Virus record (IMG/VR): IMGVR_UViG_3300042311_000577
Span: 58,795 to 122,794 of that record
Direction: 5' to 3' (one strand)
Source of the DNA: a virus
DNA length: 64,000 nt
Shown here: positions 59,272 to 61,877 of the stretch, in pieces
Numbering within the stretch: position 1 is the stretch's first letter
Layout: every line of letters starts with the position of its first letter
Notes under the pieces: model-generated
The model's database searches: none
What the model was told of the DNA's origin: nothing
What the model saw: the letters and a program-made list of their open reading frames with translations, nothing else
Position numbers and translations under genes: made by a program

Positions 59272-59311
59272 ATAAGAGTAGCCACTAACGTGGTTACTCT
59301 TTTATTTTTTT
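59272..59311 (+). terminator. Intrinsic terminator
   Basis: AAGAGTAGCCAC/GTGGTTACTCTT stem followed by a T-run. Confidence 0.75.
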
Positions 59312-59736
59312 GATACCTGAAACATTTCCCTTTCTTTTCTAGCCCTTATCTTGATTTGCATTTGTATTCCTAATGGAATACTGCAAACCTGACAGTTGAT
59401 ATATTAAAATTTTCTACATAGAAAATATAAAGCAGCAGGCTACTTGCTACTTGCTACTTTCAGCTTTCATATTTCTACATTATAGTATTATTCACACTAT
59501 AATTTACACATCATGCATACTCACCCGGGAATGCTTGATACCTGCAGTATAGTAATTGTACATTACTTGTAAATTTCAAAGCTTATTTTATCTAAGCTTA
59601 TGTATGTTATTGTTATTGAGTATCACTCTCATACCAATACTATACTATCTATCTAGAAAACATATATACTATATAATACTTTAGTATTATTATATATTTT
59701 ATATAGCTAAACCTAGTAACCAATAAATATCAATAT

Positions 59737-60012
59737 ATGAAAACAAGAAACTATGATTTACTTGTTATAGGCATTATGATAGGAACATTAGCTACTGTTC
59801 TTATAGATGTACTATTATCTTTTGCTTTCTCTTTAGATAGAGAGAACAAGTCTCCGGAAAAATCCTACAAGGCTGTAGGTGGTAATATTGACATAGAATA
59901 TTACTTGGAAGTATCTGAAGACTCAATTTGGGTTGAAGGTGTACAATCTAAGAAAGTATACAGTGGTAAATACTCTGACTTGGATTCATTAATCAATGTA
60001 GATAACTTATAG
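59737..60012 (+). CDS. Membrane-anchored hypothetical protein, 91 aa
   Basis: N-terminal TM helix. Confidence 0.65.
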   Translation: MKTRNYDLLVIGIMIGTLATVLIDVLLSFAFSLDRENKSPEKSYKAVGGNIDIEYYLEVSEDSIWVEGVQSKKVYSGKYSDLDSLINVDNL

Positions 60013-60019
60013 TTATCTA

Positions 60020-60475
60020 TTCCTTACTGTTAGCAAACAGTGACAAACCTGTGGGGCTACTATTGGGTTCTATATTTCTCCTGCAAAGAGATTTATAGTG
60101 CTACATATCATTTGCAGTGATATAATCCAAAGTTAGTGCAGACTTAAAAATCAGGTATTTTACATATAGCATATTGATAAAGCTATATGAGTTTAATTTA
60201 AACTAGACAGTTTTATACACGGGAGCAATCTGGCAGTGTGATCCTGTTGACCACAGCAGTAATATGTGGTATGTCATTTATCTATTCTCCTACACAAGAT
60301 TCCACTTGGGAGAATACAGCTGACTGAAGTGGAATTCAGTTTTACTTACAAGAATAGAACTCAGCGGTTCTTACTATGATCTAGGAAATCATATGTGCTT
60401 GTATTTTATGTGTAATTGAGCACAACATTATTATCTAACTATGATCTAGTCCTGTGTACCTAGCACAGGCAAGTC
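60020..60475 (+). ncRNA. Candidate large structured ncRNA
   Basis: No ORF; more than ten pairable hairpins, several with GCA-ending loops, and a 9-bp pseudoknot pairing (60299-60307 with 60327-60335). Confidence 0.5.
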
Positions 60476-60499
60476 CTCAAATTAAAAAAATTAAAAGCT

Positions 60500-60736
60500 A
60501 TGATTTCAAATTCAATGATTGCAAACAGAGAGTACGTGGATACTTATATGCATTTTAACACTAAAATTACTGAAGAGTTGATTAAAACAGCTGAAAAACT
60601 ATTCAGAAGAGAACTAACTCCTCATCAAACTAGAGAGATTCATAAAATGGAACTCAAAGATAAGCAGTGGTTACTTAAACAGTATAAATCAGATATCAAG
60701 TTCACTAAAGAACCTGATCTTGATCATTTATACTAA
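60500..60736 (+). CDS. Hypothetical protein, 78 aa
   Basis: ORF with an A-rich leader. Confidence 0.6.
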   Translation: MISNSMIANREYVDTYMHFNTKITEELIKTAEKLFRRELTPHQTREIHKMELKDKQWLLKQYKSDIKFTKEPDLDHLY

Positions 60737-60742
60737 TGACCT

Positions 60743-60770
60743 TTCCTGAGCATGAATTAAAACTGCTCAT
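60743..60770 (+). ncRNA. Small H-type pseudoknot motif, copy 1
   Basis: TTC-CTGAGCAT-GAA...AAACTGCTCAT; second copy at 61883-61911. Confidence 0.5.
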
Positions 60771-60882
60771 TACTCTCATCCAAGCAGGATAAAGATATAA
60801 CCCCAAAATCATACTAGCATTAGTCATATGTACGAAGCAGGAACTTTGGGCAATCAAGGGTTGCAACCTTGTGAGAGTACTA
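60771..60882 (+). ncRNA. tRNA-like structured element (non-canonical)
   Basis: TACTCTCA/TGAGAGTA closing stem stacked on a CAAGG-GTTGCAA-CCTTG arm; no canonical T-loop or anticodon arm. Confidence 0.4.
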
Positions 60883-60886
60883 TTAA

Positions 60887-61054
60887 TGCACCATTCCTGA
60901 TTCCCAAGGTCAGGCAGTTGTAATGTACCTCATAGATGTTCATATGCATGAGGCAAATGACATACATCACTGGTTGATTGGACTATAAATCCATGATGTT
61001 AGAAAGTGTCAGATACGTAATAGTATAAGTACATTACAACTGAGTGCAGAGGGG
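60887..61054 (+). ncRNA. Candidate pseudoknotted multibranch ncRNA (~170 nt)
   Basis: TGCAC/GTGCA and CCTGAT/GTCAGG stems, a perfect 14-bp stem (60915-60928 with 61029-61042), and loop TCCC complementary to the 3' GGGG. Confidence 0.55.
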
Positions 61055-61100
61055 TAATTAACTTATAGAAACTTAATTAATAACTTAAAATTAAACTCAA

Positions 61101-61877
61101 ATGAAAATTCATTTACATTCAAAACAAGGTCTTTATGAAGTAGAGACCTATGGTAGAGAAACAATTACTTGTTCTACTAAGCATAACTTATTTCAAGTAC
61201 CAACTAGTGACTTCAAGTCATTTGCCGGTGGTAATTGGAACTTTAATATCAGCAAAGAAAAGATGGATTTATTTCTATCTGTTGTTCAACCTGAAAAATA
61301 TAAACTTCAAGTTGAGCAAGAAAATGAAATCATTACTCTTGCAGCAAGAATGGATATGATTAAAGAAGCTGTCAAAGCTTCATCTATACAATCTGTTGTT
61401 GAAGAAGAAGATGGTCCAACCAAAGAAGATTATGAAAAATGGTGGAGACAAGAATCTGATAAGAATTCTGAATTGAATAAAAAGATGAGAAAAATTGCTC
61501 ATGAAGTATATTCACAAAAACTTGATTTTAGCAACTTTCAGGTAACTAAAGGTATCAAGTTCATCATACAGCAGGATCATTATGATGATGATTCATATAG
61601 ATTCTGTTGGGATCCATATGGATTTGTATCTAATGGTCACAGTGATATCAGTAGTATTTTTTATGCTGATGATTATGGTACTGTTAGTGGTGGTTGGATC
61701 AAGATCTTTGAAGATAACGTGATTCTATACTACAAGTCAGGTGACTATGGAGTATATGATGATGCTATTGCTATGAAGTGTGCAAAGAAACTATTTCCTG
61801 GAAAGAATATACATTCTTATGCAGGAAGACAATGGGATGAAGAACTTGATAAAATGTTCTTTGATCTTCCATTCTAA
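61101..61877 (+). CDS. Protein with C-terminal Janus/Ocnus (PHPT1 phosphohistidine phosphatase)-like domain, 258 aa
   Basis: GHSDI...SGGWI...VILYYKSGDYG...AKKLFPGKNI parallels PHPT1 YHADI...GGGRI...IHVYGYSMAYG...IKAKYPDYEV. Confidence 0.5.
   Translation: MKIHLHSKQGLYEVETYGRETITCSTKHNLFQVPTSDFKSFAGGNWNFNISKEKMDLFLSVVQPEKYKLQVEQENEIITLAARMDMIKEAVKASSIQSVVEEEDGPTKEDYEKWWRQESDKNSELNKKMRKIAHEVYSQKLDFSNFQVTKGIKFIIQQDHYDDDSYRFCWDPYGFVSNGHSDISSIFYADDYGTVSGGWIKIFEDNVILYYKSGDYGVYDDAIAMKCAKKLFPGKNIHSYAGRQWDEELDKMFFDLPF

What the first reader, a model, noticed from the sequence alone, without database searches (positions are those of the whole stretch)
60020..60475. Candidate ~450-nt structured ncRNA with GCA-loop hairpins and a 9-bp pseudoknot
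Seen: ACTGTT-AGCA-AACAGT (60026), TCTC-CTGCAAA-GAGA (60077), ATATCAT-TTGCA-GTGATAT (60105) and AAGTT-AGTGCA-GACTT (60130), the last three enclosed by ACCTG/CAGGT. Further stems are CATATAGC/GCTATATG, CCACA/TGTGG and TATTCTCC/GGAGAATA; the loop of the last (ATTCCACTT, 60299) is exactly complementary to AAGTGGAAT (60327). More hairpins continue to CCTGTG/CACAGG (~60451-60469). Known: large phage-associated ncRNAs such as GOLLD and ROOL exist; I cannot assign this one to a family. Inference: it is a large, possibly new, structured RNA.
Basis: partly seen in the sequence, partly recalled or inferred. Interest (0 to 1): 0.7.

Follow-up and report, generated by a model that had tools for sequence, protein, structure and literature searches.

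The report
Hatchet ribozyme heading circular phage RNA
The gene-free stretch encodes a known self-cutting RNA (a hatchet ribozyme) fused to a new, tightly folded 320-base RNA, and lake and river RNA data suggest the phage cuts the whole 453-base unit out of its transcript and closes it into a ring.

Summary
The hairpins are real, but the stretch is not one unknown RNA. Bases 60020-60156 are a full-length Hatchet ribozyme (Rfam RF02678, 82.2 bits against a cut-off of 51). Bases 60157-60476 match no Rfam family but form a conserved fold. It has 47 distinct versions in phage and metagenome contigs. In these, 99.8% of tested cells pair and 8 pairs changed on both sides, against 0.9 in shuffles. 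All 61 copies with enough upstream DNA follow a hatchet. Homology starts 3 bases before the ribozyme's cut site and ends 3 bases after a second site, UCC|UCA, that resembles it. Contigs of 3 of 4 metatranscriptome runs laid (2 studies) join 60473-60477 back to 60021-60025, giving a 453-base circle. Their depth is 4-13 times that of the contigs on the next gene. The junction is absent from IMG/VR contigs and from my 215 loci. Size, 36% G+C and freshwater origin fit the "viroid-like" hatchet circles of Lee et al. 2022. Here the circle is encoded by a distant crAss-like DNA phage. The cargo's function is unknown. This scan's earlier notes describe the same kind of element in other genomes.

The parts
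59737..60012 (+). Upstream small ORF (91 aa, no PHROG match). Its mRNA would be released by the 5' cut.
60000..60018 (+). P0-like hairpin just 5' of the cut site (AGATAAC / GTTATCT, 7 bp). The loop holds the stop codon TAG at 60010-60012.
   Evidence: Sequence. Li et al. 2015 state that about 90% of hatchets have such a P0 (passage). Unrelated 5' flanks of homologues also carry hairpins here (by eye).
60020..60156 (+). Hatchet self-cleaving ribozyme: P1 60024-29/60038-43, linker CAA 60044-46, P2 60047-51/60152-56, cores UGUGGGGC 60050-57 and GUGCAGAC 60136-43. The predicted cut is between C60023 and U60024.
   Evidence: Rfam RF02678, 82.2 bits (gathering score 51), model positions 1-133 of 133. 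The cut site was mapped by matching the Rfam consensus letters to the numbering of Zheng et al. 2019 (U7, G8, A9, G10, A11, A12, C14, U17, C20-A22; passages).
60157..60476 (+). Cargo domain with no Rfam match. Helices: H1 60163-70/60182-89; H2 60190-95/60199-204; variable insert 60205 to about 60279; HB 60283-91/60308-16; HC 60324-27/60336-39; HD 60356-60/60367-71; HE 60375-80/60388-93; variable part 60394-60450; HG 60451-56/60464-69.
   Evidence: Alignment A3 of 47 distinct copies; pair counts; stems D and E anchored on their conserved loops.
60299..60335 (+). Loop-loop contact: loop B AUUCCACU (60299-306) with loop C AGUGGAAU (60328-35).
   Evidence: helix 4: 8 pairs, 100% of cells paired, 7 invariant, 1 with an A-to-G change giving G-U. 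The search patterns fixed part of it.
60319..60365 (+). Second long-range contact: GCUGA (60319-23) with loop D UCAGC (60361-65).
   Evidence: RNAalifold proposed it. helix 5: 99.6% paired, G-U in 2 copies, one end mismatch (L098). The later search patterns fixed its 5' strand.
60382..60462 (+). Third contact: loop E UAGG (60382-85) with loop G CCUA (60459-62).
   Evidence: helix 7: 98.9% paired. One copy (L034) changed on both sides (A-U to G-C); 2 copies are unpaired at that position.
60474..60479 (+). Second, hatchet-like cut site UCC|UCA (cut C60476|U60477). UCA could pair with U60041-G60042-A60043 of P1.
   Evidence: GTCC|TCA in 53 and GTCG|TCA in 7 of 60 copies. Conservation stops right after TCA. 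The RNA junction falls here. The pairing is an inference.
60024..60476 (+). The excised unit: a 453-nt RNA seen as a circle (35.8% G+C; 64.5% of bases paired in a circular MFE fold).
   Evidence: joint 60473>60021 'goes back 453', 4 shared letters..
60500..60736 (+). Downstream small ORF (78 aa, no PHROG match), starting 23 nt after the 3' cut. It is one of at least 8 unrelated small ORF families found in this position.

Best explanation
The stretch is a gene for a circular RNA in the early, plus-strand arm of a distant crAss-like freshwater phage.

Proposed course of events:
1. A read-through transcript carries the upstream small ORF, a P0 hairpin, a hatchet ribozyme, a 320-nt cargo fold and the next small ORF. 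No plus-strand terminator-like site lies between 59302 and 62000.
2. The hatchet cuts at its own 5' edge (C60023|U60024), leaving a 5'-OH on U60024.
3. A second cut falls at UCC|UCA (C60476|U60477). This site repeats the ribozyme's own site (UC at -3/-2, U at +1) and follows hairpin G, which stands where a P0 hairpin would.
4. Inferred: the trinucleotide UCA displaces the bottom three pairs of P1, so the same active site makes the second cut and leaves a 2',3'-cyclic phosphate.
5. When UCA leaves, U60024 pairs back next to that phosphate. The ends are then joined, either by reversal of the ribozyme reaction or by a host RtcB-type ligase.

The product is a 453-nt circle made of the ribozyme plus the cargo. 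The same cuts also give the upstream mRNA a hairpin-capped 3' end and give the downstream mRNA a short A-rich leader.

What is shown and what is inferred:
- Shown: the hatchet identity, the conserved and covarying cargo fold, the strict linkage of the two, the sharp homology borders, and the circular junction in RNA contigs.
- Inferred: who makes the second cut, who ligates, and what the cargo does. My guess is that the cargo is a nuclease-resistant platform that binds a protein during early infection.
For: 1. Hatchet: 82.2 bits against a gathering score of 51, over the full model.
2. Cargo fold: 47 distinct copies. Of 2350 cells, 99.8% pair. Eight pairs changed on both sides, against 0.9 in shuffles (0 of 500 shuffles reach this), and sliding the partners gives 28-45% paired. 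Stem D has pair types CG/UA and GC/AU under a fixed loop. Stem E has 3-5 pair types at each of 5 positions, all 47 of 47 paired.
3. Linkage: 24 of 24 loci found by a cargo pattern carry hatchet motifs, as do 61 of 61 copies with at least 170 nt upstream.
4. Borders: the 5' flanks fall into about 14 unrelated groups (counted by eye), yet 58 of 60 copies keep TC at -3/-2. The 3' end reads GTC[C/G]|TCA in 60 of 60, and similarity is lost after TCA.
5. Circle: one search reports the joint 60473>60021 (4 shared letters, so 60476>60024 fits) in contigs of X15 (491 nt, depth 84.9), X16 (439 nt, 25.8) and X17 (491 nt, 27.4), from 2 studies. The X15 record equals one turn plus a 30-letter overlap, and the X16 record equals one turn. 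Contigs on the next ORF have depths of 6.4, 6.55 and 2.7.
6. The junction pattern has 0 hits in IMG/VR contigs and 0 in 215 fetched loci.
7. Lee et al. report 34 hatchet cccRNA clusters of 357-567 nt, median G+C 35%, mostly aquatic, the most diverse being 440 nt and from freshwater (passage). This family is predicted at 385-482 nt, median 448, with G+C 35.5%.
8. Natural hatchets can have a P1 of only 3 bp (Ht-2; passage).
Against: - The circle rests on assembled contigs of relatives (88-99% alike), not on raw reads of this phage. Contigs give no strand and no true ends, and RNA libraries can hold DNA (caveats printed).
- The fourth run laid (X18) gave a 394-nt linear contig without the junction.
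- I could not lay DNA runs (cap reached). Absence of the junction from DNA therefore rests only.
- The 3-bp strand-swap model has no covariation behind it. P1, UCA and the site are invariant in the family.
- My cross-family test of second sites was weak. In 34 other hatchets, sites with a preceding hairpin occur at 4.89 per kb downstream, against 2.52 upstream and 1.8 on the reverse strand. The heuristics were crude and the sequences are related.
- Two of the three long-range contacts have no double changes, and the search patterns fixed part of them.
- The structure was derived from the same sequences it was tested on.
- The closest relative by the neighbouring gene (L001, 93% identity) lacks the whole module, so the module is dispensable.
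Confidence: 0.72

Rival explanations
1. Linear processed leader. The hatchet only trims the transcript, like a natural ribozyme insulator. The cargo acts in cis as a 5' stabiliser or translation element for the small ORF that follows. Circles are a minor by-product.
For: In most loci where the script found a downstream ORF, the ATG follows the end of the conserved block by 16-32 nt. Several unrelated downstream ORF families begin with similar codons (MI.K.MI). There is no terminator-like site between cargo and ORF.
Against: RNA contigs close on themselves and do not run on into the ORF. They have 4-13 times the depth of the ORF contigs. Conservation ends 3 nt after the junction, not at the ATG. 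The downstream ORFs belong to at least 8 unrelated families, and in some loci the script found no downstream ORF or one 45-121 nt away.
Confidence: 0.12
2. Autonomous viroid-like RNA replicon, as the published label implies. The phage DNA copies are captured or master copies, while the circle is copied RNA-to-RNA by rolling circle.
For: Hatchet circles of this size were classed as viroid-like cccRNAs. The circle regenerates its own cut site. The circle contigs are much deeper than the neighbouring gene contigs.
Against: At least 65 full-length DNA copies sit in phage or metagenome contigs at the same kind of place, with intact flanking cut sites. There is one copy in this complete 122.8-kb genome. 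Only one strand has a ribozyme. No RNA polymerase is encoded in the circle; its longest ORF is 41 codons. Stable circles would out-accumulate mRNA without any replication.
Confidence: 0.06
3. The cargo holds a second, new ribozyme that makes the 3' cut or the ligation itself. The hatchet makes only the 5' cut.
For: The core of the cargo is invariant and knotted by three long-range contacts, as ribozyme cores are. The 3' site lies at the edge of the conserved block.
Against: The 3' site copies the hatchet's own site (UC-N|U plus 3 nt able to pair with P1) and follows a P0-like hairpin, so no second catalyst is needed. This scan's earlier notes describe much smaller hatchet circles with hardly any cargo (unchecked by me).
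Confidence: 0.07

Closest known systems
Hatchet self-cleaving ribozyme (Rfam RF02678; Li et al. 2015, PMC4604424; Zheng et al. 2019, PMC6561176)
   Same: Bases 60020-60156 match the whole model, including P1-P4, the CAA linker and the conserved cores. A P0 hairpin lies upstream and the cut site is at the very 5' edge.
   Different: In the passages I read, the class has no stated biological role and is known only from metagenomes (210 examples). Here it stands in a complete phage genome, is always fused to one particular 320-nt fold, and is followed by a second copy of its cut site.
'Viroid-like' hatchet cccRNAs from metatranscriptomes (Lee et al. 2022 preprint, doi 10.1101/2022.07.19.500677)
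   Same: Circular in RNA assemblies, 357-567 nt (here 453), low G+C (35% against 35.8%), mostly freshwater, a ribozyme on one strand only, and a branched fold with about 62% of bases paired (here 64.5%).
   Different: The passages I read present them as candidate RNA replicators of unknown host, and 'DNA-encoded' sequences appear only as a possible contaminant. Here the DNA source is a tailed phage genome. I could not compare sequences because supplements are closed.
Circular RNAs made from DNA genes by flanking ribozyme cuts (retrozymes; hammerhead circRNAs; engineered twister-flanked 'Tornado' RNAs; the last is recalled, not read)
   Same: Two ribozyme-type cuts give a 5'-OH and a cyclic phosphate, which are then ligated into a stable circle. 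Retrozymes have one ribozyme type on one strand (PMC11721086, passage).
   Different: There are no repeats, no retro-element features and no hammerhead. A single ribozyme copy apparently serves both sites, because everything a hatchet needs lies 3' of its cut.
HDV-like ribozymes, including theta ribozymes behind phage tRNAs (the theta ribozymes are recalled)
   Same: HDV is the only other class that cuts at its very 5' edge (Zheng et al., passage), which suits it to trimming whatever lies upstream.
   Different: A different fold. No circle or cargo is known for them from what I read.
GOLLD and ROOL
   Same: Large phage-associated non-coding RNAs.
   Different: No Rfam match to either at E <= 1. 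This element is smaller and is bounded by a ribozyme.

Membership tests
Hatchet ribozyme (RF02678) | Covariance-model score above the curated gathering score, over the whole model | tested here: met
   82.2 bits against 51; model positions 1-133 of 133; E = 1.7e-15 for the whole window.
Hatchet ribozyme (RF02678) | P1-P4 with the conserved CAA linker and conserved loop nucleotides | tested here: met
   The alignment shows CAA, UGUGGGGC and GUGCAGAC..AAAAAUCAGG in place. These parts are invariant across the family alignment.
Hatchet ribozyme (RF02678) | Self-cleavage at C(-1)|U1, giving a 2',3'-cyclic phosphate and a 5'-OH | not testable with these tools
   The site was mapped to 60023|60024 by consensus numbering. 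The RNA junction is compatible with it.
Hatchet ribozyme (RF02678) | P0 hairpin a few nucleotides 5' of the cut site (about 90% of members) | tested here: met
   A 7-bp hairpin lies at 60000-60018. In the circle, hairpin G (60451-69) takes that place.
Hatchet-bearing cccRNAs of metatranscriptomes (Lee et al.) | Circular junction in RNA assemblies | tested here: met
   3 of 4 RNA runs laid, from 2 studies.
Hatchet-bearing cccRNAs of metatranscriptomes (Lee et al.) | 357-567 nt, G+C about 35%, aquatic, ribozyme on one strand | tested here: met
   453 nt and 35.8% G+C. Run labels read lake water, freshwater and riverine. One plus-strand hatchet only.
Hatchet-bearing cccRNAs of metatranscriptomes (Lee et al.) | Sequence identity to one of their 34 clusters | not testable with these tools
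Autonomous viroid-like RNA replicon | No DNA template; RNA-to-RNA rolling-circle copying | tested here: not met
   A DNA copy is present in this complete phage genome and in 65 full-length contig copies. Copying of RNA was not tested.
GOLLD / ROOL | Match to the Rfam models | tested here: not met
   The only other match at E <= 1 in 59300-61200 is a 14-bit chance hit to Ocean-VII.
Retrozyme | Hammerhead ribozyme split over flanking direct repeats, plus retro-element features | tested here: not met
   No hammerhead match. The flanks of homologues are unrelated, and shared sequence is limited to 3 nt on each side. Primer-binding sites were not examined.

The most novel reading that the evidence does not exclude
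Making RNA circles is the natural job of the hatchet class. One ribozyme cuts on both sides of itself by swapping a 3-nt guide into P1, and then reseals the ends. On this reading, the whole population of 'viroid-like' hatchet circles in lakes consists of gene products of crAss-like DNA phages. The knotted 320-nt cargo would then be a new functional RNA used in host take-over, for example a decoy for a host nuclease or defence protein, or a template that the phage's own polymerase can copy.
Probability: 0.3. Interest if true: 0.9.

Novelty: new variant of a known kind. Interest (0 to 1): 0.8.

Why it matters
In the passages I read, hatchet ribozymes have had no stated biological role since their description in 2015 and were known only from metagenomes. 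This locus gives a concrete and testable role: cutting out a defined RNA, and probably closing it into a circle, in a complete phage genome.

It also bears on an open debate. The hatchet-bearing circular RNAs reported from freshwater metatranscriptomes as possible bacterial viroid-like replicators would instead be transcripts of DNA phages. That changes how such surveys should be read.

The cargo is a conserved RNA fold of about 320 nt, held by three long-range contacts and absent from Rfam. Such folds have often turned out to be ribozymes, riboswitches or protein-binding machines.

Four of my literature searches turned up no paper that, on its listing or in the passages I read, links hatchet circles to DNA phages. 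The library lacks most subscription journals, and I saw only the preprint of Lee et al., not the journal version.

Tried and rejected
- blastn of 59700-61100 against 50,697 GenBank phage records found no match.
- ARAGORN found 0 tRNAs in the window. A spurious upstream reading frame ('RVRGSNP') in several relatives made me suspect a tRNA just before the hatchet. ARAGORN on 55 loci found none there; the only tRNAs lie elsewhere in the loci, by their coordinates about 3-4.5 kb from the module. I dropped the idea.
- Coding reading: the longest ORF in the circle is 41 codons. Indels among homologues are not multiples of three, and whole hairpins come and go. Rejected.
- PHROGs gave nothing for the two flanking small proteins or for the 258-aa neighbour.
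- The pattern TTCTCY..GGAGAAYANAGCTG in IMG/VR gave 36 stretches, of which only one (L164, truncated) was a new member; the 10 other new stretches had no match to the cargo profile.
- In the metagenome scan, 12 of 51 loci were not members.
- A cross-family search for second cut sites behind 34 other hatchets gave only a 2- to 2.7-fold excess with crude rules. I treat it as inconclusive.
- The sigma-70 promoter scan found no more sites than shuffles (14 against 17.2). It is uninformative for this phage.
- Run X18 gave no junction, and no RNA contig was laid on 59959-59995 or bridged 60477-60498. Absence of cover proves nothing.
- I did not build a covariance model. nhmmer on the fetched loci sufficed to recognise members.

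Full report
**What is at the coordinates.** The window is the right-hand 64 kb of a complete 122,794-bp virus record with direct terminal repeats. It carries a major head protein, a portal and a large terminase. The terminase's nearest relatives among GenBank phages are crAss-like phages of Bacteroides and Flavobacterium, at about 25% identity. The phage is therefore a distant crAss-like phage. All runs that hold the stretch are labelled lake, freshwater or riverine.

The finding lies in the plus-strand arm. It sits between a 91-aa ORF (59737-60012) and a 78-aa ORF (60500-60736). It is downstream of a terminator-like hairpin at 59274-59301, and no further plus-strand terminator-like site occurs up to 62000.

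**The observation.** On one sequence alone the evidence is thin. The 343 nt after the ribozyme fold with z = -2.05 (4 of 100 shuffles fold as well), and the opposite strand gives z = -0.97.

**The first third is a known ribozyme.** Rfam gives one hit above threshold in the whole window. It is Hatchet (RF02678) at 60020-60156 on the plus strand, at 82.2 bits against a gathering score of 51, covering model positions 1-133 of 133. It is the only hatchet in the genome.
- ACCTG/CAGGT is P2.
- The 'AGTGCA' hairpin overlaps the conserved core GUGCAGAC and is not a helix in the model.

I matched the Rfam consensus letters to the numbering of the crystal-structure paper (U7, G8, A9, G10, A11, A12, C14, U17, C20-A22; passages). 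This puts U1 at 60024 and the nucleotide 5' of the cut at C60023. A 7-bp hairpin at 60000-60018, whose loop holds the stop codon of the upstream ORF, stands where about 90% of hatchets have a P0 hairpin (Li et al. 2015; passage).

**The other two thirds are a conserved, covarying fold absent from Rfam.** No Rfam family matches 60157-60480 at E <= 1.

How the homologues were found:
- Relatives found through the neighbouring 258-aa protein showed block-wise conservation.
- A pattern from the cargo core found 24 IMG/VR loci.
- A looser pattern added L098 and L164.
- One metagenome scan gave 51 loci, of which 39 are members.
- In all there are 65 full-length copies and 47 distinct sequences, aligned as A3.

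How the structure held up:
- I tested a structure of eight helices or contacts. Of 2350 cells, 99.8% pair.
- Eight pairs have changes on both sides, against 0.9 in shuffles (0 of 500 shuffles reach this).
- Sliding the 3' partners by 1-3 columns drops pairing to 28-45%.
- Two further hairpins, anchored on their conserved loops (UCAGCG and UAGGA), covary strongly. Stem D uses GAC/GUC, GAAC/GUUC, GGAU/AUCC and GCAAC/GUUGC. Stem E has 3-5 pair types at each of five positions, all 47 of 47 paired. The loop borders of E were chosen to maximise the stem, which favours pairing.
- Two segments (60205 to about 60279, and 60394-60450) are variable inserts. The first is missing from L033, L098 and L201.

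**The 'pseudoknot'.** ATTCCACTT and AAGTGGAAT are exactly complementary and almost invariant. However, the 3' strand lies in the loop of a 4-bp hairpin (CUGA/UCAG) that has a compensatory change in L205. The interaction is therefore a loop-loop contact. Its only variation is an A-to-G change that keeps a G-U pair (helix 4).

Two more long-range contacts fit the data:
- GCUGA with the loop of hairpin D. This shows G-U in two copies and an end mismatch in one.
- The loop of hairpin E with the loop of hairpin G. This has one copy with changes on both sides (helices 5 and 7).

Caveats apply. My retrieval patterns fixed parts of the first two contacts, and the structure was derived from the sequences it was tested on.

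**Ribozyme and cargo are one unit with sharp borders.**
- All 24 loci found by the cargo pattern have the hatchet cores upstream, as do 61 of 61 copies with at least 170 nt of upstream sequence.
- The reverse does not hold.
- The 5' flanks of the copies fall into about 14 unrelated groups (my count by eye). Similarity begins at TC-N just before U1, and 58 of 60 copies have TC at -3/-2.
- At the other end every copy reads GUC[C/G]|UCA (53 and 7 of 60), and similarity is lost immediately after UCA.
- What follows is a small ORF from at least eight unrelated families: 44 aa in 23 loci, 78 aa in 11, 51 aa in 10, and others. It usually starts 16-32 nt further on.
- The closest relative by the neighbouring protein (L001, 93% identity) lacks the hatchet, the cargo and most of the 78-aa ORF.
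- The unit is present once in this genome.

**RNA data: a circle.** The index found six metatranscriptome runs that hold part of the stretch. I laid the four with the largest shares.
- In three of them (X15 and X17 from one study, X16 from another), a contig joins 60473 back to 60021 ('goes back 453'). Four letters (TCCT) are shared, so the joint can equally be 60476>60024. Those are exactly the two predicted cut sites.
- The X15 record (491 nt) runs 60314..60473 then 60021..60343. That is one turn plus a 30-letter overlap, as a circular path in a 31-mer graph gives.
- The X16 record (439 nt) runs 60172..60473 then 60021..60169, which is one turn.
- Their depths (84.9, 25.8 and 27.4) are 4-13 times those of the contigs on the next ORF (6.4, 6.55 and 2.7).
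- X18 gave a 394-nt linear contig inside the unit.
- A pattern for the junction has no match in IMG/VR contigs or in the 215 loci I hold, which include the DNA copies.

The limits are those the tool states. These are contigs of relatives, not reads. They show no strand or true ends, RNA libraries may contain DNA, and I could not lay DNA runs.

**Mechanism.** A hatchet needs almost nothing 5' of its cut, since the ribozyme lies entirely 3' of it (Zheng et al.; passage). The 3' border of the unit repeats the site: a P0-like hairpin G, a few nucleotides, UC at -3/-2, then U at +1. The three conserved nucleotides beyond the cut (UCA) can pair with U60041-G60042-A60043, the bottom of P1, and a C-G pair replaces a U-G pair. 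A natural hatchet with a 3-bp P1 is active (Ht-2; passage).

I therefore propose that one ribozyme cuts twice by swapping the bottom of P1. The released 5'-OH of U60024 then pairs back next to the cyclic phosphate of C60476 and is ligated, either by reversal of the reaction or by a host RtcB-type ligase. This last part is inference, because the nucleotides involved do not vary. A crude test on 34 other hatchets gave only a 2- to 2.7-fold excess of such sites downstream.

**Comparison with what is known.** Lee et al. (preprint; passages read) found the hatchet ribozyme in 34 clusters of circular RNAs of 357-567 nt. These came mainly from aquatic metatranscriptomes, with median G+C of 35% and about 62% of bases paired. 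The most diverse cluster was 440 nt, from freshwater. They presented these as viroid-like RNAs, and they mention DNA-encoded sequences only as a possible contaminant.

The family here is predicted at 385-482 nt (median 448) with 35.5% G+C. This copy is 453 nt, with 35.8% G+C and 64.5% of bases paired in a circular fold. The match in properties is close, but I could not test sequence identity because supplements are closed. A 2024 opinion article notes that circles with a ribozyme on one strand might be DNA-encoded retrozyme-like elements (passage).

Four searches turned up no paper that, on its listing or in the passages I read, ties hatchet circles to DNA phages. Earlier notes of this scan describe the same kind of unit in other phage genomes. 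I reached the circle reading, before looking those notes up. They are not independent evidence.

**Verdict.** But its head is a known ribozyme, its class has been seen as RNA circles, and the new points are three:
- the DNA phage origin;
- the two-site architecture;
- the conserved 320-nt cargo fold, whose function is unknown.

My confidence is about 0.97 that it is a hatchet, and about 0.72 that the unit is excised and circularised as described.

Noticed in passing
window 60853-60884; L031 and L214 just upstream of their hatchet: The motif CAAGGGTTGCAACCTTGTGAGAGTACT lies behind the 78-aa ORF in the window. In L031 and L214 it stands directly in front of the hatchet cut site. RNA modules of this early arm are therefore shuffled between relatives.
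   Followed up: partly
5' flanks of L200, L209, L167, L182, L165, L029, L005: A small hairpin with the conserved loop CUGAGUAA and covarying stems (ATATC/GATAT against TAGTC/GACTA) lies about 15 nt before the hatchet cut site. It may be a P0 variant with a function of its own.
   Followed up: no
5' flanks of L181, L201, L183, L026, L024, L028, L206: A conserved non-coding block of about 70 nt (GAGGCAGTAATCCTCTC..., then a GTACAGC/GCTGTAC hairpin) precedes the hatchet. It reads as a spurious ORF, and ARAGORN does not call it a tRNA.
   Followed up: partly
downstream ORFs of the family: Several small ORF families that BLAST finds unrelated all begin ATGATT...ATGATTGA (MI.K.MI). Either the conserved module reaches into the first codons, or recombination joins lie there.
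   Followed up: no
L034 5660-5751; L003 7244-7403: ARAGORN reports a 92-nt tRNA with a four-letter anticodon (tttt) in L034. Rfam reports a 160-nt tRNA match in L003 (33.7 bits), which may be a tRNA with an insert. Many relatives carry tRNA-Arg(TCT) by their locus coordinates about 3-4.5 kb from the module, but the window has no tRNA.
   Followed up: no
window 60012-60668 against L001 3557-3745; X16 record 3: The closest relative lacks the hatchet, the cargo and most of the 78-aa ORF. One RNA contig joins 59937 to 60731 with 259 other letters between. The module is therefore present in some close relatives and absent in others.
   Followed up: partly
hatchet P3/P4 region, window 60076-60120: Family members carry either a short or a roughly 30-nt longer P4 arm. 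The loop sequences CUGCAAA and UGCAG are conserved over differing stems.
   Followed up: no
window 59302-59736: About 430 nt without an ORF lie between a terminator-like hairpin (59274-59301) and the 91-aa ORF. This is presumably the promoter region of this transcription unit.
   Followed up: no
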